The notes under the pieces were generated by a model. It made no database searches, was not told the DNA's origin, and saw only the letters and a program-made list of their open reading frames with translations. Shown here one piece after another: positions 1,602 through 63,360 of a stretch of 64,000 bases of DNA; within the stretch, counting starts at the first letter, position 1, and each line of letters opens with the position of its first letter. The DNA comes from Haliotis cracherodii (taxonomy: Eukaryota), in assembly GCF_022045235.1 (NCBI RefSeq), contig NW_027266341.1:18786001-18850000 (forward strand). The letters are read 5' to 3'. The position numbers and the translations under genes were made by a program.

Positions 1602-2622
1602 GTACGCCGGATGCCGAGCTCTGTTAGACGGTATTCCGGATGCAGTGCAGTACGCCGGATGCCGAGCTCTGTTAGACGGTATTCCGGATGCAGTGCAGTA
1701 CGCCGGATGCCGAGCTCTGTTAGACGGTATTCCGGATGCAGTTCAGTACGCCGGATGCCGAGCTCTGTTAGACGGTATTCCGGATGCAGTGCAGTACGCC
1801 AGATGCCGAGCTCTGTTAGACGGTATTCCCGGATGCAGTGCAGTACGCCGGATGCCGAGCTCTGTTAGACGGTATTCCGGATGCAGGGCAGTACGCCGGA
1901 TGCCGAGCTCTGTTAGACGGTATTCCTGGATGCCGTGCAGTACGCCGGATGCCGAGCTCTGTTAGACAGTATTCCGGATGCAGTGCAGTACGCCGGGTGC
2001 CGAGCTCTGTTAGACGGTATTCCGGATGCAGTGCAGTACGCCGGAAGCCGAGCTCTGTTAGACGGTATTCCGGATGCAGTACGCCGGATGCCGAGCTCTG
2101 TTAGACGGTATTCAGGATGCAGTGCAGTACGCCGGATGCCGAGCTCTGTTAGACGGTATTCCGGATGCAGTGCAGTACGCCGGATGCCGAGCTCTGTTAG
2201 TCAGTATTCCGGATGCAGTGCAGTACGCCGGATGCCGAGCTCTGTTAGACGGTATTCCGGATGCAGTGCAGTACGCCGGATGCCGAGCTCTGTTAGACAG
2301 TATTCCCGGATGCAGTGCAGTACGCCGGATGCCGAGCTCTGTTAGACAGTATTCCCGGATGCAGTGCAGTACGCCGGATGCCGAGCTCTGTTAGACAGTA
2401 TTCCGGATGCAGTGCAGTACGCCGGATGCCGAGCTCTGTTAGACGGTATTCCGGATGCAGTGCAGTACGCCGGATGCCGAGCTCTGTTAGACGGTATTCC
2501 GGATGCAGAGCAGTACGCCGGATGCCGAGCTCTGTTAGACGGTATTCCGGATGCAGTGCAGTACGCCGGATGCCGAGCTCTGTTAGACGGTATTCCGGAT
2601 GCAGTGCAGTACGCCGGGTGCC
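1602..2622. repeat. CpG-rich 48-bp minisatellite, about 21 copies
   Basis: Unit gtacgccggatgccgagctctgttagacggtattccggatgcagtgca, head to tail, near identical with occasional indels. Confidence 0.97.
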
Positions 2623-6100: not shown

Positions 6101-6400
6101 GACCCAGATTTTCTAGTGGTAGAGCGTCCGCCCGGAGAGCGGAAGGTACGGGGTTCGATCCCCGGCCGCGTCATACCAAAATATGGTACTTGTTGTTACC
6201 CTGTCTGGCGCTCGGCATTAAGGGGCTAAACAAGGACTGGTCGGATCGGAGTCAGTATACTGTGTCTGAGTTGGGTATTCATGTTAAACTGCGGCATGGT
6301 ATCTCAGTGAGTTAGCACTATAAATCGGCATCAGTCCGGACTAGTAGCAGCCACACACACAGACACACACGTCCATGCACGTCGCTATATAAGTGCAATA
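6101..6400 (+). mobile_element. tRNA-derived SINE family B (Meta/Deu-like central domains)
   Basis: ctagtggtagagcg A-box, ggttcgatcccc B-box, gtcatacc...ggcattaagggg body shared with 19051 and 52248. Confidence 0.9.
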
Positions 6401-6416
6401 ATAATATAATCCTTAT

Positions 6417-6548
6417 ATGCCGAGCGCCAGACAGGGTAACAACAAGTACCATCTTTTAACGTCTTTTGGTATGACGCGGCCGGGGATCGAACCCCGTGCC
6501 TTCCGCTCTCCGGGCGGACGCTCTACCACTAGACCACGGAGGCGGTCT
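6417..6548 (-). mobile_element. Head-only family B SINE, inverted relative to the neighbouring copy
   Basis: Reverse complement of the first ~130 bp of family B. Confidence 0.88.
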
Positions 6549-7675
6549 CATATGACTATAGTTTATCTGTCATGCCATGACAAATTAACTGTAGTAATGT
6601 GAAAGAATCGGGTGGTTCTTTACTTGCGGTGCACTAGCTCCAGATTGCAACGGAGTCATGCATCTTGATCACGATAAAGCATTTATAGGTTTTTGATGCT
6701 GACAATGTAACAAAAACAATTAGACTTACTTTCTAGCACCTGAACAACGTTCTCGCTCCGACGAAGAAACTTCATACAGGCGAACTTGGGCGTTCTGGAA
6801 AACAAGATGTATTTAATTACAGTAGGGAATGTAGACTGTAGGAGCACACCCCCAGGCCAAGAAAATCAAATTACCTTATTTTTATTGAAATACCCGTGTA
6901 TATTGTCTAGTGAGGTGCGGTCATTTAATTTTTGTCTAACCAACAAGAAAAGGTTCTACTCATTGTATAAATAATATTGATTACATGTACTTCTAAATCT
7001 GTATGAATCCTGATATTTTGAATTTCCATAAATAAAATTTCGGAAACCACGTTCTTCAAAGAACTAAAAACAGTTGCTGTTAGTGTAGTCCCACCATGCA
7101 CGTTTGAAGGAAGACGTTGTACGCACTCAAACCTTTTCCAAAAATAGTTTTGGTGACGAACAAACGGTCTTTACGACCAGAGCAATGATATATGTATGTG
7201 TTGATAAACGACATGAAATTGATGGTACGAGTCATACAAATCAATCTCCGTTTAGGTCATTACATGCCAATGGTTGAGTACAAAATTGCCCCTAACTGTC
7301 ACAAGCGGGCTCTCAGTCTCTCCTAATATGACAACCTATCTTCCCTCGCTGACTGTAATACAATTAGACTCCACACAGTGCCACAGGGTGTATGGTGTAT
7401 CGTAAAGGTATAATTGCGGCTCATTCTCTGTTGACTCACTTGATTAGTACAAGAAGAGGGGGGGGGGGGCATATAATCTCCTTGTTGTACACCCTGCTGA
7501 GGAGTGAGTGAGGAGCGTTAACGAGGCTGATAGCAATCGTACAGCAATATCATGGGCGATTACCAAGACTTATTTTACTACCCTGAAGAGGATTCGAACC
7601 CTGATTTTGTCAATTTAATATCGAACGTAAATATATTTTCTGTTCATAACCTGAACTGGTTGGACTGTACAGTAA

Positions 7676-7678
<3 letters not shown>

Positions 7679-7756
<78 letters not shown>
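7679..7756. repeat. (TA)n microsatellite
   Basis: Pure TA run of about 78 bp. Confidence 0.98.
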
Positions 7757-7761
<5 letters not shown>

Positions 7762-7786
7762 TCTCTGCTAAAAACTGTTGTCCGTT

Positions 7787-10700
7787 GTACAATTCCGACT
7801 GTATCACAAGCAAGTGTTTATGAATCACTATCAATTAGGGATGATACCAGGTGTTCGAGAAAAGGTAAGCGTATATTGCCCCACCAGTGCCAGTGGCACC
7901 TGTCACAAATACATGCAAAGACAAGTCATTTATTCACCTAACAACACGTGGGAACCTATCGTACAGGTCAAAATAAGGAATTGCATCGGAACTCAGTTTT
8001 GTCACTGATGTGTCAAATTTGGAAATATCCTCCACATATCTACCTTAAACACTTTTTGAAAGCCTTACTGATGTTGTAACCCTGATCAAATAACGTTTGA
8101 GCAAATGCCTTTTGATGTCTTCGCAGAAAGATCGTGCTTGATTATACCTTAAAAGGTGTGAAGTGAAAACAGCCCAGGCTGGAGCTGCTGGAATATGGCT
8201 CGACATAAAGGGAAAGTTGACTGTTGGAATAATGAAGTCTTCCCGCTTATCTTACAGTCTTGTGGACATTTCATTGACTCCACACTCATCATACAGTCTT
8301 GTGGACACTTCATTGACTCCACACTTATCATACAGTCTTGTGGACACTCTATTGACTCCACACCTATCATACAGTCTTGTGGACACTTTATTGACTCCAC
8401 ACCTATCATACAGTCTTGTGGATACTTCATTGACTCCACACCTATCATACAGTCTTGTGAACACTTCATTGACTCCAAACCTATCATACAGTCTTGTTTA
8501 CACTTTATTGACTCCACACTTATCACACAGTCTTGTGGACACTTTATTGACTCCACACTTATCATACAGTCTTGTGGACACTTTATTGACTCCACACTTA
8601 TCACACAGTCTTGTGGACACTTTATTGACTCCACACTTATCACACAGTCTTGTGGACACTTTATTGACTCCACACTTATCACACAGTCTTGTGGACACTT
8701 TATTGACTCCACACTTATCACACAGTCTTGTGGACACTTTATTGACTCCACACTTATCATACAGTCTTGTGGACTCTTTATTGACTCCACACTTATCATA
8801 CAGTCTTGTGAACACTTTATTGACTCCACACTTATCATACAGTCTTGTGGACACTTTATTGACTCCACACTTATCATACAGTCTTGTGAACACTTTATTG
8901 ACTCCACACTTATCATACAGTCTTGTGGACACTTTATTGACTCCACACTTATCATACAGTCTTGTGGACACTTTATTGACTCCACACTTATCATACAGTC
9001 TTGTGAACACTTTATTGACTCCACACTTATCATACAGTCTTGTGGACACTTTATTGACTCCACACTTATCATACAGTCTTGTTTACACTTTATTGACTCC
9101 ACACTTATCATACAGTCTTGTGGACACTTTATTGACTCCACACTTATCATACAGTCTTGTGGACACTTTATTGACTCCACACTTATCATACAGTCTTGTG
9201 AACACTTTATTGACTCCACACTTATCATACAGTCTTGTGGACACTTTATTGACTCCACACTTATCATACAGTCTTGTGGACACTTTATTGACTCCACACT
9301 TATCATACAGTCTTGTGAACACTTTATTGACTCCACACTTATCATACAGTCTTGTGAACACTTTATTGACTCCACACTTATCATACAGTCTTGTTTACAC
9401 TTTATTGACTCCACACTTATCATACAGTCTTGTGGACACTTTATTGACTCCACACTTATCATACAGTCTTGTGAACACTTTATTGACTCCACACTTATCA
9501 TACAGTCTTGTGGACACTTTATTGACTCCACACTTATCATACAGTCTTGTGGACACTTCATTGACTCCACACTTATCATACAGTCTTGTGGACACTTTAT
9601 TGACTCCACACTTATCATACAGTCTTGTGGACACTTTATTGACTCCACACTTATCATACAGTCTTGTGAACACTTTATTGACTCCACACTTATCATACAG
9701 TCTTGTGAACACTTTATTGACTCCACACTTATCATACAGTCTTGTGGACACTTTATTGACTCCACACTTATCATACAGTCTTGTGAACACTTTATTGACT
9801 CCACACTTATCATACAGTCTTGTGGACACTTCATTGACTCCACACTTATCATACAGTCTTGTGGACACTTTATTGACTCCACACTTATCACACAGTCTTG
9901 TGGACACTTTATTCACTCCACACTTATCATACAGTCTTGTGGACTCTTTATTGCCACTCTGAATCTTTATGCATAGATTTAAATATGAAACAGATGAGGC
10001 TGTTTCAGTGGTCTCTTTTATTTCTAGTTCAGGTGAGTAAATCTAAGGAAAGTATTGCATTTTGACAATTATTAAACAATATCAGATCTACGATTTATCT
10101 GCAATTTAACCTTATTTACGCGCCGCTTTCGATGTTTTTCCTTTGTGTTAGGAAACAGATCAGCAAGGAGCGAAGCACAATTGGTGCCCATGGAGATGAT
10201 AACCTCTTGCCAAAATGTGCTAACCCTAACTGTCAGACATCTTGGATCAAATCATGTGTATATGAGGTCTTGCATTTCACATATTGTTTCCACAGTAACT
10301 TCAGATGACATATCCTTTCATTTCAGGCAAAGTTTAAAATAAAATGATTTGACATAATTAAACTTTGGTCTTTAGTGAGATGGCAAAAAATCAAAACATT
10401 TTTGAGAATCCAGACAAGATATTAATTCCACTTGTCTCGAATGCTTTCTGAGAGAGTACTTCCCTGATTGCTTTAAGGATTATGGTTAATCTTGGAAACG
10501 GGGATTTGGTGGTACATTTGCTGGACCCTGCGATATTTTTCTCCTTGTATGGCTATTTATGAAGCTTTGGGAGAAGAGGACATGTCTCCATGTCTTAAAT
10601 TCAATCCAAACGTTTATAGTATTGATGCGTAGTCTTTGCAGGATTCTTCCTAAATTTACATGCTGGCCTCCTATGAGGCAGTAATGACTATATGTCACTC

Positions 10701-11075
10701 GAATGTCACTTGTATAAATGTCTTTGACCAAACAAGTAATGTAGTGACGCTTACATATAATGGTTATTGTTTTTGAGGCCTTGTCAGTGGGAACAGCTAC
10801 ACACTGTTCATGTAGGAAGCCGGATTTCGGATGACAGCTAGGGACAGAATGGGTTTATTCCTATTCTTTTTCCTCTTTTTCAGTTTGTGCATTCCTCCAA
10901 TGACAACATCACGCACTGACTAAACCCACTCTGAAATAAATTCGACAGGTTCATCTCCTGTATTGGCCCAGATTTTACCATACGCGCCGATAGCATTCAT
11001 GAAATTGTGATCCCAAGAAAAAATGAGACCAGAGTCTATTTTCCTCTTTGGTTGACGGATACTGGTGGAGCAAAT
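7787..11075 (-). mobile_element. Decayed Penelope-like retroelement (Naiad-like, C-terminal RT): RT remnant plus 3' end
   Basis: Hand translation of the minus strand gives, in order, VPTDKASKTITIICKRHY, PYKEKNIAGSSKCTTK, SGIN..WILKN, ISMGTNCASLLADLF, IYSPELEIKETTETASSVSYLNL, STRL*DKREDFIIPTVNFPFMSSHIPAAPAWAVFTSHLLRY, which are PLE RT motifs. It has frameshifts and stops, and no GIY-YIG domain follows the RT. Confidence 0.88.
8250..9955. repeat. 39-bp minisatellite, about 44 copies, inside the PLE RT
   Basis: Unit tacagtcttgtggacactttattgactccacacttatca; the minus frame reads GVNKVSTRLYDKC. Confidence 0.98.
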
Positions 11076-11128
11076 TTATAAAAGATTATATAAAACAAAA
11101 TAATTAAAAATTAAAAAAATATAAAAAA

Positions 11129-11294
11129 GGGGCGGTCGGGTAGCCTAGTGGTTAAAGCGTTCGCTCGTCACGCCGAAGACACGGGTTCGATTCCCGACAT
11201 GGGTACAATGTGTGAAGCCCATTTGTGGTGTCCCCCGCCGTGATATTGCTGGAATATTGCTAAAAGCGGCGTAAAACCATACTCACTCACTCAC
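11129..11294 (+). mobile_element. SINE family A, full length
   Basis: Intact A/B boxes, (actc)n tail, TSD tataaaaa at 11120-11127 and 11295-11302. Confidence 0.93.
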
Positions 11295-12179
11295 TATAAA
11301 AATGTAATACATTGTGCACAGGTACATTGCATTATAAGCTGTTCTGTTACCACAGTTGTAAACATAGGTAAGATGATAAAAATAAAACAACGATTTATCG
11401 TTGAAAAAATTCTGTTTTTTGTCAAACAAAAACTCCCATGGATTATTTTTATTGTTAAAGCGATCTTTACTGTCAACAATATAAGAAAACTTAACATTCA
11501 GATATTTTTTGCTCTTCTGAATTTTCGATTATTGTGGTCGCTGGGACCGTAAACTAAGCTAAAAAATGCAAGGCCTGATGTAGAAAAAACCCATCTTGAT
11601 TTAAAGTGATATGACTCAAGTAAACGTACATTTTATGATCTTGAATCAGCGGTTAAATCTTTACTTGATTAGTTATTACGGTTCTCGAAGTCTTCCAGTT
11701 TCGTGGTCTCGACACGTGAGCCATCGGCTTAGTTTATGTTCTGGCAGTCGCCCTACTGCGATGATACCGATGCACTGTGGCCAAGACCTTACTACAAACA
11801 CTAGAATTACGTTAGCTTCAAGTGTTGTGAGGCAAACCTAATTAGGAATGATTAAGATAGAATTAAGGGGGTCACACAATTTCGGCACGGTTCTATAAGA
11901 AGTTAAACCGGTGTTCTAACATTTTTATTACCGCTTAAACATCTGCAAACTACCTTACAAACCCACAATCGCAAAACATGTTAAATGTTATATTAAAAAA
12001 GCTTTATGAAAACTTTGGGCCATATTTATAAGGGGAAATGCATTTTCAGTCATTTAGTTTTCTTGTAACGTTGTCACCACGATCACGCTATTCTATCTAG
12101 TCCCCAATTAGTCAACTGATTCTTACATGTTGATCAATGTATGAAATAAGCCTGCTTTGTCACATATTTAAATCAAATA

Positions 12180-28491: not shown

Positions 28492-28880
28492 GTAAGGGGA
28501 TTGACAGTTGCCATACGTGGGGTTCAAATAATTATTCACTTCGCGCCCATACAAACAACTAGTTTGTGTAAGATGATTGGTAGTTGCCATTCGTCAGATT
28601 CATATAATTATTAACCTCCTCCCGGGTACCCATTCAAACAAGTAATTTGTGTAAGGGGATTGATAGTTGCCATTCGTGGGATTCATATCAATATTCATCT
28701 CCTTCCGGGTACCCATAACAAACTACTAGTTTTTGTAAGGGGATTGGTAGTTTCCATTCGTAAGATTTATATCAATATTCACCTCCTTCCGGGTACCCAT
28801 TCAAACAACTAGTTTTGGCGGGGGATTGACAGTTGCCATTCGTAAGCTTCATATCATTATTCACCTCTTTCCAGGTACCT
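28492..28880. repeat. Diverged 65-85 bp tandem repeat, about 5 copies
   Basis: Recurrent gtaaggggattg..agttgccattcgt..attcatat..ccgggtacccat..aaacaactagttt. Confidence 0.85.
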
Positions 28881-41290: not shown

Positions 41291-41689
41291 ACAACAACGT
41301 GTAGGTGGCCCAGATTAATATATAAATCTGAGGATCAGACAATGGCTATCATCTGTTATTCATACCACTGCTAATGTATATATGTAACATTTGTGAGTTC
41401 ATCTATTAAACATTTCATTGACGGTTGGACATTTTCCAAGTAACGATTTTTTCGTTAAGTCATCGTTATACGAATGGTTGCAACAATGGTCTCGCGTTAT
41501 AACGAACACCGAGCTCCTGGGGCTCAATAAGACACCATCCTGGGAACTGTACTAGTGTCTCTGTATGAAGCACCTTTCACCATTGTGTCACGTGACGCCG
41601 GTTTATAACCGGCGCTGTTACTTCATAGTTAACACATACAAGTGTCCAAACTGAAACAGACATATTCGATCATTTGACCAGTGCATAAT

Positions 41690-42165
41690 AGTACATAATA
41701 CTTCTAGTGAGATTAGAACATAATACTTGCAGTGATATTAGTACATGATATTTCTGGCGATTTCAGTTCAAAATACTTCTTGTGATAGAGTACATTATAC
41801 TTCTAGTTATTCAAGTACTTAATTCTTCAGTGATTTCTGTACATAATATTTCTGGTTGTTTTGGTACATAATACTACTAGTAATTTTAGTACATAATACT
41901 TCTAGTGATTATAGTACATAATACTTTTAGTAATTTTAGTACATAATACTTCTAGTGATTTTAGTGAATAATGCTTCTAGTGATTTGAGTACATAATACT
42001 TCTAGTGATTTGAGTGAATAATACTTCTAGTGATTTCAATACATAATACTTCTAGTGATTTCAATACATAATATTTCTAGTGATTTCAGTACATAATACT
42101 TCTTGTGATTTTAGTGCATAATACTTCTTGTGATATAGTACATAATACTTCTTGTGATGTCAGTA
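41690..42165. repeat. 25-bp AT-rich minisatellite, about 19 copies
   Basis: Unit agtacataatacttctagtgatttt. Confidence 0.92.
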
Positions 42166-42600
42166 CATACTCCTCATTCTCAAAATTCATAATGCGACAT
42201 TTGAATATGATCGCGGGAACGTCCCTTCTAGTTCTCCATGGATACGCGGCACCAGCACCTGTACAGGTCGCCATTAGCCTCCCGCGGGGCCCCACCTGGC
42301 CTTGGCCAGATCAATAACGTCTCCTCTTACTCAATTAACTGTTAACAGTTGTGAAAGCACAGAGGTATGCTCTATATGACAGTTATACGTATATTTGTCT
42401 CAGTGTAGTAGTATGTCTATCAGCTAAAGATAATATAATGATTGACTCTCACTTCCAAGATTTTACTTGATCCGGGCAGAACTATGAGAACGACGTGCCT
42501 TATTTCAAGAGCTTCTGAAATTAGTCGCTAACAGTACAAACTATACTAGAAAACAAGCAACAAAACCCTTTCCATATTAATGATAATTGTCTGCCTAAAT

Positions 42601-42957: not shown

Positions 42958-43325
42958 AGTGACCCTGTGCTACTTGTGGTCTCACACACGTGGTCAGTCA
43001 GTGACCCCCTGCTACTTGTGGTATCACACACGTGGTCAGTCAGTGACCCCGTGCTACTTGTGGTATCACACACGTGGTCAGTCAGTGACCCCGTGCTACT
43101 TGTGGTATCACACACGTGGTCAGTCAGTGACCCCGTGCTACTTGTGGTATCACACACGTGGTCAGTCAGTGACCCCGTGCTACTTGTGGTATCACACACG
43201 TGGTCTGTCAGTGACCCCGTGCTAGTTGTGGTATCACACACGTGGTCAGTCAGTGACCCTGTGCTAGTTGTGGTCTCACACACGCGGTCAGTCAGGGACC
43301 CTGCTACGTGTGGTCTCACACACAT
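42958..43325. repeat. 42-bp minisatellite, about 8.5 copies
   Basis: Unit agtgaccccgtgctacttgtggtatcacacacgtggtcagtc. Confidence 0.96.
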
Positions 43326-44410: not shown

Positions 44411-44915
44411 TTCGATGTCCCGGTAACTGCTCTGCTTGAGTGAATCTGAGAATACGATGTCCCGGTACTGCTCTGCTTGAGTGAATCTGAGCATTTGATG
44501 TCCCGGTACCTGCTTTGCTACGAATCTGATGATTCGATGTCCCGTTACTGCTCTGCTTGAATGAATCTAATAATTCGATGTACCGGAACTGCTCTACTTG
44601 AGTGAATCTGATAATTCGATGTCCCGGTACCTGCTCTACTTGAGTGAATCTGATAATTCAATGTCCCGGTACCCACTCTGCTTGACTGAATCTGATAATT
44701 CGATGTCCCGGTACTGCTCTACTTGAGTGAATCTGATAATTCGAAGTCCCGGTACCCACTCTGCTTGACTGAATCTGATAATTCGATGTCCCGGTGCTGC
44801 TCTACTTGAGTGAATCTGATAATTCGATGTCCCGGTACTGCTCTACTTGAGTGAATCTGATAATTCGATGTCCCAGTACCTGCTCTGCTTGAGTGAATCT
44901 GATGATTCGATATAC
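44411..44915. repeat. 41-42 bp minisatellite, about 12 copies
   Basis: Unit ttcgatgtcccggtac(c)tgctctacttgagtgaatctgataa. Confidence 0.95.
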
Positions 44916-45599
44916 CGGTACGGGGATATCGTAAAAATAACACACTTAGTGAATAGAGAGATTGAGATACGCCGCTTCCGAAACCAAGCAATGTTAGTGA
45001 ACAAATCCAGGGTATTTGCCGTAATGTGGAGACATAATACACTGGAGAATCTAGGATGCCTGGGACATATTTCTTCCCATTCATCCCATATTTGCCTCCC
45101 TACATCAAGCCCATTAACCAAATATTCCTTTCACGCTCTCAATACGCTTCAGCTCTTCGTTGTGTCGTACAACCATGGTCTGAAACCATTTCATGAAAAA
45201 GTTACTGAAAATATATTACTATTGTATGAAAAAGACACTTTCTGCTTTCTGTGGGATTACTGAAGCAAACGGTTCCATCTCATATCCCCCACTTACAAGG
45301 ACTGGTATTTTATTGCCCCTCGCATTAAAATTTGACCGTATTTATCGATAAACCTGTCCCGCGTGAAGATCCGCAGACAAGAAGATACAGTTGAACACGC
45401 AATATTCTTAGGTGTGGTATAACACGCGGTATGACTGGCAGTTCTTTTGCGTTCGCTGCTCTTGCGTGAATATTGACACCTATATTTAGTTGTATGGTAT
45501 GTGGAATTATTCATGTAACTTTCTAAAACGTGTGAGGATTCCATGCCATCTTTATGCAATGACATATGCTAGCGAAATCATTTATACGTGAAACCATGC

Positions 45600-63016: not shown

Positions 63017-63360
63017 ACTTGACGCCCATATGTGTAAATCAACAATTGAACTAACTTGACTCCCACGCATGTAAATCAACAATTGAACTATCTTGACCCC
63101 CATGCATGTAAATCAACAATTAAACTAACTTGACTCCCATGCATGTAAATCAACAATTGAACTAACTTGGCGCCCATGCATGTAAATCAACAATCGAACT
63201 AACATGACGCCCATGCATGTAAATCAACAATCGAACTAACTTGACGCCCATGCATGTACATCAACAATCGAACTAACTTGACGCCCATGCATGTAAATCA
63301 ACAACTGAACTAGCTTGACGCCCATGCATGTAAATCAACCATTGAGCTAACTTGACCCCC
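63017..63360. repeat. 37-bp minisatellite, about 9 copies
   Basis: Unit acttgacgcccatgcatgtaaatcaacaattgaacta. Confidence 0.95.

What the first reader, a model, noticed from the sequence alone, without database searches (positions are those of the whole stretch)
8250..9960. Minisatellite born in frame from a reverse-transcriptase coding motif
Seen: on the minus strand the RT frame enters the array as ..SYLNLCIKIQSGNKESTRLYDK, repeats (CGVNKVSTRLYDK) about 44 times without frameshift, and exits as STRL*DKREDF..VNFPF. The 39-bp unit is an amplification of the PLE RT STxLYDK segment, so the three ~590-aa ORFs are by-products. The array is far more homogeneous than the decayed host element, which suggests expansion after the element died (inference). 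This is a clear snapshot of a satellite originating from a TE.
Basis: partly seen in the sequence, partly recalled or inferred. Interest (0 to 1): 0.7.

Follow-up and report, generated by a model that had tools for sequence, protein, structure and literature searches.

The report
Minisatellite inside a dead Naiad retrotransposon
A 39-base piece of a dead jumping gene's copying-enzyme sequence is repeated 44 times in place, likely by slippage and unequal exchange after insertion; at least 12 other copies of the same jumping gene in this genome carry their own such repeats, mostly out of frame, so it is a clean but ordinary case of a known process.

Summary
Observation confirmed: a 39-bp x 43.8 array (8246-9953, no indels) sits inside a decayed, 5'-truncated Penelope-like element of the Naiad clade (about 7762-11018, minus strand). 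Its flanks are colinear with intact Naiad reverse transcriptases across the thumb motif STRLYDK|RDDF. The array is single-locus. It arose after insertion: two copy-private substitutions are shared by nearly all units and absent from 43 other copies. It is not protein-coding: the RT frame has four stops, and the three ~590-aa ORFs lie in other frames at chance level. "In frame" is incidental: 13 Naiad-derived arrays found in this genome have periods of 13-134 bp, and only 3 are multiples of three. Only 30 of the 39 bases map cleanly to the element; the 9-bp junction is new. Contigs from three other organisms hold the orthologous copy (2-4% diverged) and pieces of the unit with that junction, so the founding duplication likely predates their split. 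Repeats derived from transposable elements, including coding parts, are well known, and the scan noted the same process in other genomes. I found no paper on Naiad-derived arrays (searches listed). New member of a known kind; low interest.

The parts
8246..9953 (-). 39-bp minisatellite, 43.8 copies: a 30-bp core from the Naiad RT thumb (codons K-T-L-S-T-R-L-Y-D-K in sister copies) plus a 9-bp junction
9923..9961 (-). entry unit; its first 9 bp are still element-like (Q-S-G, sister copies Q-S-D)
8246..8284 (-). exit unit (STRL*DK), followed by the element-like R-E-D-F
9954..11018 (-). 5' part of the decayed Naiad copy: P0010 residues 481-906 in pieces with stops and frameshifts, including the DKA motif (near 10790) and RT motif B; truncated before the CxC motif and the endonuclease
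   Evidence: tblastn
7762..8245 (-). 3' part of the Naiad copy: RT C-terminus (matches to about 7940-7950) and 3' tail; similarity to sister copies ends at about 7762-7785
7679..7756 (.). (TA)39 microsatellite directly beyond the element's 3' end, the preferred Naiad target
   Evidence: PMC8557442 results part 1
8142..9976 (.). three stop-free frames of 587-606 aa across the array (two plus, one minus); by-products, not genes
11134..11205 (+). tRNA-like head of a probable SINE just beyond the element's 5' end; not part of the array
   Evidence: Rfam tRNA 31.1 bits, E 0.0011

Best explanation
This is a single-locus minisatellite inside one dead, 5'-truncated Naiad (Penelope-like) retrotransposon copy, likely founded by a local tandem duplication in genomic DNA after the copy had begun to decay and likely grown and homogenised since by replication slippage and unequal exchange. 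Shown: the parent, the colinear flanks, single-locus occurrence, copy-private bases shared by the units, and sharing of variants between neighbours and at an 8-unit spacing. Inferred: the order of events and the repair mechanisms. The 39-bp period fits a duplication between the imperfect 9-bp matches (4-bp exact TGAC in sister copies) that lie 39 bp apart around the motif (Haber-Louis type). The internal junction then needs 4 changes in 9 bp, so either the first duplication is old or the junction carries a short templated insertion. Nothing suggests a function; the frame is kept by chance.
For: Colinear tblastn hits on both sides. Sister copies read QSDKTLSTRLYDKRDDF with the motif once. The junction 22-mer gives 42 genome matches at up to 2 mismatches: 41 here, 1 isolated non-Naiad hit. 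A T eight bases before the motif is in 44 of 44 units and a G two bases before it in 43 of 44; each is in 0 of 43 other copies. Divergence order: flank vs 28 paralogues 18.0%, paralogue pairs 12.7% (355 pairs), units 4.2%; orthologous flank contigs in organisms B, C, D 10 of 429, 12 of about 306 and 15 of 483 letters. Neighbouring units and units 8 apart are more alike than shuffled (p 0.002 and 0.0004, 15 lags tested); the last 7 units are the most diverged (2.4 vs 0.6-0.9 differences). Twelve other Naiad copies carry independent arrays.
Against: The junction is not a clean copy of either flank (5 of 9 to the exit tail, 3 of 9 to the entry head), and 4 of 9 differences are unlikely unless divergence since duplication is high (p 0.008 at 10%, 0.086 at 20%). 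It matches the reverse complement of an adjacent entry 9-mer at 8 of 9 (about 2% for random 9-mers, post hoc). No listed contig bridges flank and junction in organisms B-D, so attachment there is inferred. The 8-unit signal within units 2-29 alone (p 0.009) does not survive correction for 14 lags.
Confidence: 0.87

Rival explanations
1. The duplication was made at insertion, by the element's own reverse transcriptase slipping on its RNA (or inherited from a master with the repeat), and only expanded later.
For: Naiad insertions often form partial tandems (PMC8557442). Five of the 13 arrays (L116, L123, L140, L141, L157) show Naiad sequence only on the 3' side, i.e. at an apparent 5' truncation point. 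An old duplication would explain the diverged junction. PMC3389668 suggests retrotransposition may help initiate such repeats.
Against: This array is internal, with both flanks. Substitutions private to this copy are shared by entry, internal and exit units, which needs them to predate the duplication or to have been spread by later homogenisation. No other copy has the junction. Many array-free copies also lose similarity just upstream of the motif, so 5 of 13 is not clearly enriched.
Confidence: 0.08
2. The array is kept in frame because it encodes a repeat protein or an expanded RT thumb.
For: Period 39 = 13 codons, no indels in 44 units, three ORFs of about 590 aa.
Against: Four stops in the RT frame; the parent is broken by stops and frameshifts. 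Four of six frames of the commonest unit are stop-free, as in 15% of shuffles; the 14 distinct variants are mostly non-synonymous in every open frame (1-5 synonymous of 14, expected fraction 0.17-0.24). The best Pfam hit (Spike_JR2, E 1e-8) passes only as a summed score with 0 passing stretches. Only 3 of 13 sister arrays are in frame (p 0.56).
Confidence: 0.02
3. The array is an assembly artefact or is inflated in this assembly.
For: Tandem arrays are error-prone in assemblies; no long reads were available.
Against: Units carry ordered variants. Unit-bearing contigs occur in organism A (X1) and in organisms B (X11), C (X13) and D (X16).
Confidence: 0.02
4. The STRLYDK segment is a special hotspot for repeat birth.
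For: The paired 13-mer search gave 8 loci for the motif against 4 for a downstream Naiad 13-mer that is about twice as abundant. Sister copies have ACAAG twice, 13 bp apart, and four loci carry 13-bp arrays (3 with Naiad flanks).
Against: Leaving out this locus, 7 vs 4 gives p 0.052; with Naiad flanks required, 5 vs 4 gives p 0.18; without the 13-bp class, p 0.69 or more (denominators approximate). The 13-bp microhomology does not explain this 39-bp unit.
Confidence: 0.25

Closest known systems
TE-derived single-locus minisatellites of the human genome (Ahmed and Liang 2012, PMC3389668; abstract and Results section 9 read whole)
   Same: A tandem array grown locally from part of one TE copy, single-locus, partly shared with related species and extended lineage by lineage; 7,276 cases (23% of minisatellites), with regional hotspots in AluS.
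   Different: Parent here is a Naiad PLE coding region, not Alu, L1 or ERV; 44 units against a mean of about 2.3-2.4 for Alu-derived ones.
Haber-Louis model of minisatellite birth between 5-10 bp direct repeats (seen only as cited in PMC6947457 passages, and PMC3389668)
   Same: Imperfect direct matches 39 bp apart flank the unit in sister copies; the 13-bp sister arrays sit on an exact 5-bp ACAAG repeat and the 47-bp one on a 7-of-8 match.
   Different: Here the exact match is only 4 bp and the junction has diverged or was rebuilt, so the model is not proven for this array.
Satellites containing LINE ORF2 sequence: PROsat (Phodopus), Pvc20 (seal), HinfI/SCR1 (chicken CR1) (table and passages of review PMC9659126)
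   Same: Tandem repeat made of retrotransposon coding sequence.
   Different: Those are large satellites; this is a 1.7-kb array still embedded in its parent with both flanks.
Ogre-derived satellites of Lathyrus sativus (PMC7004042, abstract only)
   Same: Short arrays inside retrotransposons as seeds of larger repeats.
   Different: As I read the abstract, those short arrays lie within dispersed LTR elements and expand at centromeres; here each array is private to one dead copy and none found exceeds about 3.2 kb.
Non-LTR retrozyme tandem arrays derived from PLE termini (bioRxiv 10.64898/2026.07.22.740005, passages)
   Same: A PLE insertion gives rise to a local tandem repeat; the paper notes earlier matches between PLE parts and satellites.
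   Different: Those come from the hammerhead-bearing terminal repeat; this one is from RT coding DNA and no hammerhead was found.
Naiad clade of Penelope-like elements (Craig et al. 2021, PMC8557442; passages and part 1 of 4 of Results read)
   Same: Parent element: DKA motif, no C-terminal endonuclease, (TA)n target, 5' truncation, high copy number in a mollusc.
   Different: The parts read do not describe minisatellites growing from Naiad copies.

Membership tests
Naiad PLE (parent) | RT related to Naiad RTs | tested here: met
   Six colinear tblastn segments to P0010 at 40-71% identity; P0010 has GIY-YIG at 131-222 and RT at 642-857
Naiad PLE (parent) | N-terminal GIY-YIG endonuclease | tested here: inconclusive
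   Absent from this 5'-truncated copy (no hit before P0010 residue 481 in the whole window). Present upstream of the RT in 2 of 3 fetched genome loci (L160, L162), which match the window flanks at 68-73% DNA identity; the third (L163) has the endonuclease and part of the RT
Naiad PLE (parent) | DKG motif changed to DKA | tested here: met
   Window reads VAVPTDKASK in the segment 10815-10717
Naiad PLE (parent) | No C-terminal endonuclease; no canonical hammerhead ribozyme | tested here: met
   Relatives end shortly after the thumb and the copy ends at about 7762; no hammerhead at E up to 1 in 7000-11500, though decay could hide one
Naiad PLE (parent) | (TA)n target | tested here: met
   (TA)39 at 7679-7756 next to the 3' end
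Naiad PLE (parent) | CxC motif, Zn-finger motifs and insertion-in-fingers domain | tested here: inconclusive
   Seen by eye in P0010 (motif names); truncated or not aligned in the window copy
TE-derived single-locus minisatellite | Head-to-tail units of 10-100 bp, up to about 100 copies | tested here: met
   39 bp x 43.8
TE-derived single-locus minisatellite | Unit homologous to, and embedded in, a TE copy; absent from the TE family at large | tested here: met
TE-derived single-locus minisatellite | Variable copy number between alleles or species | tested here: inconclusive
   Unit-to-flank contig depth about 20x in X11, about 3-4x in X13, about 2x in X16; the tool warns that contig depth is no copy number
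Satellite DNA | Long arrays of thousands of units, or spread to several loci | tested here: not met
   1.7 kb, one locus
Protein-coding tandem repeat | Open frame within a gene under purifying selection | tested here: not met
   Stops in the RT frame, no synonymous excess in open frames, no credible Pfam match; RNA not examined

The most novel reading that the evidence does not exclude
Dead Naiad copies are a genome-wide nursery of minisatellites in this animal. Four 13-mer probes already expose 13 independent arrays born from the RT coding region, implying tens to a few hundred in all, with known ancestral sequence and orthologues in related species. The STRLYDK segment, with its built-in ACAAG repeat, would be a true hotspot, and junctions like the 9-bp one here would record templated-insertion repair. 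This would be a replicated natural experiment on how minisatellites are born.
Probability: 0.3. Interest if true: 0.4.

Novelty: new member of a known kind. Interest (0 to 1): 0.2.

Why it matters
On its own it adds one clean example to a known process. Its use is as a data point: parent, breakpoints and relatives are all visible, and sister arrays give controls showing that an in-frame period and long ORFs in such repeats need no selection. That guards against annotating them as genes. A full census along this Naiad family could test whether short direct repeats explain where minisatellites start, a question PMC3389668 left open (known mechanisms explained 6% of its cases).

Tried and rejected
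Pfam on the two flank peptides: 0 families; on the three long ORFs only low-complexity hits with 0 passing stretches. Pfam on 25 other stop-to-stop ORFs of the window: 0 families, so no host gene context was found (short exons would be missed). Hydra clade considered first and dropped: relatives have an N-terminal, not C-terminal, GIY-YIG. Hairpin-driven instability: each unit folds a 6-bp stem, but z is -0.29 and -0.38 against shuffles. Control 13-mer at +66 was swamped by an abundant SINE that shares it (569 matches, 100 listed; only one Naiad-like locus, L142, was fetched and analysed; L117-L122 not analysed). Control 13-mer at -55 gave 3 arrays, none with Naiad flanks. Two motif arrays (L111, 13 bp; L161, 22/29/51 bp) showed no Naiad flanks and were left out of the count of 13. 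Enrichment of arrays at 5' truncation points: not supported (see first rival). Run X7 (organism B) had no contig over the junction while X11 (also B) had one; absence in contigs is no evidence. Array length could not be genotyped: only contigs were laid, on flanks with about two units each; no long reads. A 10-bp stretch of the entry unit resembles a stretch 19 bp upstream at 9 of 10 bases; with this copy's decay it may be chance, and it was not tested. Literature searches: Naiad + Penelope + tandem repeat + satellite gave one paper, which does not report Naiad-derived arrays in the passages read; subscription journals and supplements were not seen.

Full report
Observation. TRF finds a 39-bp array at 8246-9953 with 43.8 copies, 96% matches and no indels; all 43 spacings between 44 motif anchors are exactly 39. 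That frame has TAA in three internal units and in the exit unit, and the three ORFs of 587-606 aa lie in other frames. The window lies on contig C78 of a 1.18-Gb animal genome; earlier scan notes call it abalone, which I did not test.

Parent element. A 115-aa open piece of a sister copy (L063) found 88 longer relatives among 217 candidates. P0010 (1006 aa) and three others scanned have GIY-YIG near the N-terminus and RT behind it, the Naiad layout of Craig et al. (PMC8557442). tblastn places six colinear segments of P0010 (residues 481-954) on the window's minus strand from 11015 to 8105; residues 863-906 end at the array entry and 898-954 begin at its exit, overlapping only in the motif. The copy keeps DKA, lacks everything 5' of residue 481, and ends at about 7762 against (TA)39. 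No hammerhead was found. Two of three fetched genome loci with the endonuclease (L160, L162) continue into RT sequence 68-73% identical to the window flanks. The family is abundant: 5,645 first-look candidates for the 3' flank and 1,496 exact matches to a 13-mer of the motif against 63 for the reversed control.

Anatomy of the unit. Sister copies carry the motif once, as QSDKTLSTRLYDKRDDF. Of the 39 bases, 20 are family-like, 10 are this copy's altered version of K-T-L, and 9 form a junction that is neither flank. In sister copies the 9-mers before and after the 30-bp core both end in TGAC, 39 bp apart, which would give this period by slippage between short repeats. The internal junction differs from the exit tail at 4 of 9 bases, which needs a long time (p 0.008 at 10% divergence, 0.086 at 20%). 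It matches the reverse complement of a neighbouring entry 9-mer at 8 of 9 (about 2% of random 9-mers do as well, post hoc), which would fit a templated insertion, but no microhomology supports the switch. The first step is therefore unresolved.

Single locus, born after insertion. A 101-bp probe found one candidate locus. The junction 22-mer with up to 2 mismatches gave 42 matches, 41 here and one isolated hit with no array or Naiad sequence. The 20-bp motif gave 44 matches, 20 here and 24 elsewhere; the 22 fetched all lie in Naiad sequence. A T eight bases before the motif (44 of 44 units) and a G two bases before it (43 of 44) occur in 0 of the 43 other copies whose motif could be placed (43 of 50 distinct loci), so the copy had likely begun to mutate before the duplication. 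The 3' flank differs from 28 paralogues by 18.0% on average, paralogues from each other by 12.7%, and units from each other by 4.2%.

Age and turnover. Contigs from organisms B, C and D match the 5' flank with 10 of 429, 12 of about 306 and 15 of 483 other letters, far closer than any paralogue, so they are orthologous. Pieces covering the junction occur in X13 (C) and X16 (D) with the majority junction base, and X11 (B) has a 69-letter contig over 8246-8310 at depth 561 against 28 for its flank contig; 69 is the length expected for a collapsed 39-bp cycle if the assembly word is 31 (word size recalled). No listed contig bridges flank and junction, and depth is no copy number, so this is a hint that the founding duplication predates the split and that length differs by lineage. 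Within the array, neighbours (p 0.002) and units 8 apart (p 0.0004) are more alike than shuffled, and the exit-side units are the most diverged: the pattern expected from local slippage, block duplication and edge decay.

In frame is incidental. Paired 13-mer searches (periods up to 53 bp) gave 8 loci for the motif, 4 for a 13-mer at +179, 3 for one at -55 and an unusable, SINE-swamped result at +66. With loci noticed arrays including this one have Naiad flanks: periods 13, 13, 13, 19, 33, 39, 47 and 134 at the motif, 24, 41, 49 and 53 at +179, and 53 at +66. Three are multiples of three (p 0.56 against one third). Two motif arrays and the three -55 arrays had no Naiad flanks and were dropped. 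Four of six frames of the unit are stop-free, as in 15% of shuffles, and its 14 distinct variants show no synonymous excess in the open frames. A hotspot at the motif is weak (p 0.05-0.18, and none without the 13-bp class, which sits on an ACAAG direct repeat).

Known context. Repeats derived from transposable elements make up 23% of human minisatellites, most single-locus (PMC3389668, Results read). Birth between short direct repeats is the standard model (as cited in PMC6947457, passages). Satellites from LINE ORF2 are listed in PMC9659126 (passages and table), retrotransposon-seeded satellites in PMC7004042 (abstract), and PLE-terminus arrays in bioRxiv 10.64898/2026.07.22.740005 (passages). 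Six searches showed no report of Naiad-derived arrays; subscription journals and supplements were not seen. The scan's notes hold similar cases from RTE, CR1, Rex1 and R4 elements in other genomes (unchecked).

Verdict. Real, correctly identified in outline, and ordinary: a new member of the TE-derived minisatellites. Interest 0.2.

Noticed in passing
G000 C13:12.46M (L112), C78:8.44M (L113), C6:17.47M (L114), C8:31.67M (L115), C12:61.89M (L116), C45:45.17M (L070), C1:70.09M (L157): Independent arrays built on the same STRLYD motif in other Naiad copies: 33 bp x 60, 13 x 58, 13 x 32, 13 x 6, 47 x 20, 134 x 2.8, 19 x 25.
   Followed up: yes
G000 C67:29.60M (L140), C56:13.70M (L141), C6:3.12M (L123), C7:33.71M (L144), C3:45.16M (L142): Arrays from other parts of the Naiad RT C-terminus: 53 bp x 60 (3.2 kb), 41 x 3, 49 x 2, 24 x 64, 53 x 7.
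   Followed up: yes
L111 (C12:71.07M) and L161 (C78:59.72M): Arrays containing the motif 13-mer (13-bp; 22/29/51-bp periods) without detectable Naiad flanks; L111 holds short stretches resembling the bases that follow the motif, so it may be an orphaned Naiad array.
   Followed up: partly
L158 (C1:26.63M): A tRNA-derived SINE sits inside the STRLYD motif of a Naiad copy with the 13-mer duplicated on both sides, like a target-site duplication.
   Followed up: partly
window 11134-11290 and genome-wide: An abundant SINE shares a 13-bp or longer word with the Naiad RT region, and that word seeds many short tandem arrays of its own (569 paired matches).
   Followed up: no
window 1602-2622, 28546-28879, 41689-42169, 42958-43323, 44411-44921, 63017-63360: Six further minisatellites (periods 48, 83, 25, 42, 41, 37 bp) in this one window; the genome looks generally prone to minisatellite birth. 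Their origins were not examined.
   Followed up: no
window about 6110-6550: Two SINE-like ends in inverted orientation (seen by eye).
   Followed up: no
L061 and other sister copies, just upstream of the motif: A 6-bp inverted repeat with a 6-base loop (predicted stem) that the window copy has lost through clustered changes at the start of the amplified core.
   Followed up: partly
G000 C23:14558612, C67:44398176, C14:4176058, C34:51182260: GIY-YIG matches within open frames of 634-823 aa, possibly younger Penelope-like elements of this or other clades; not fetched.
   Followed up: no
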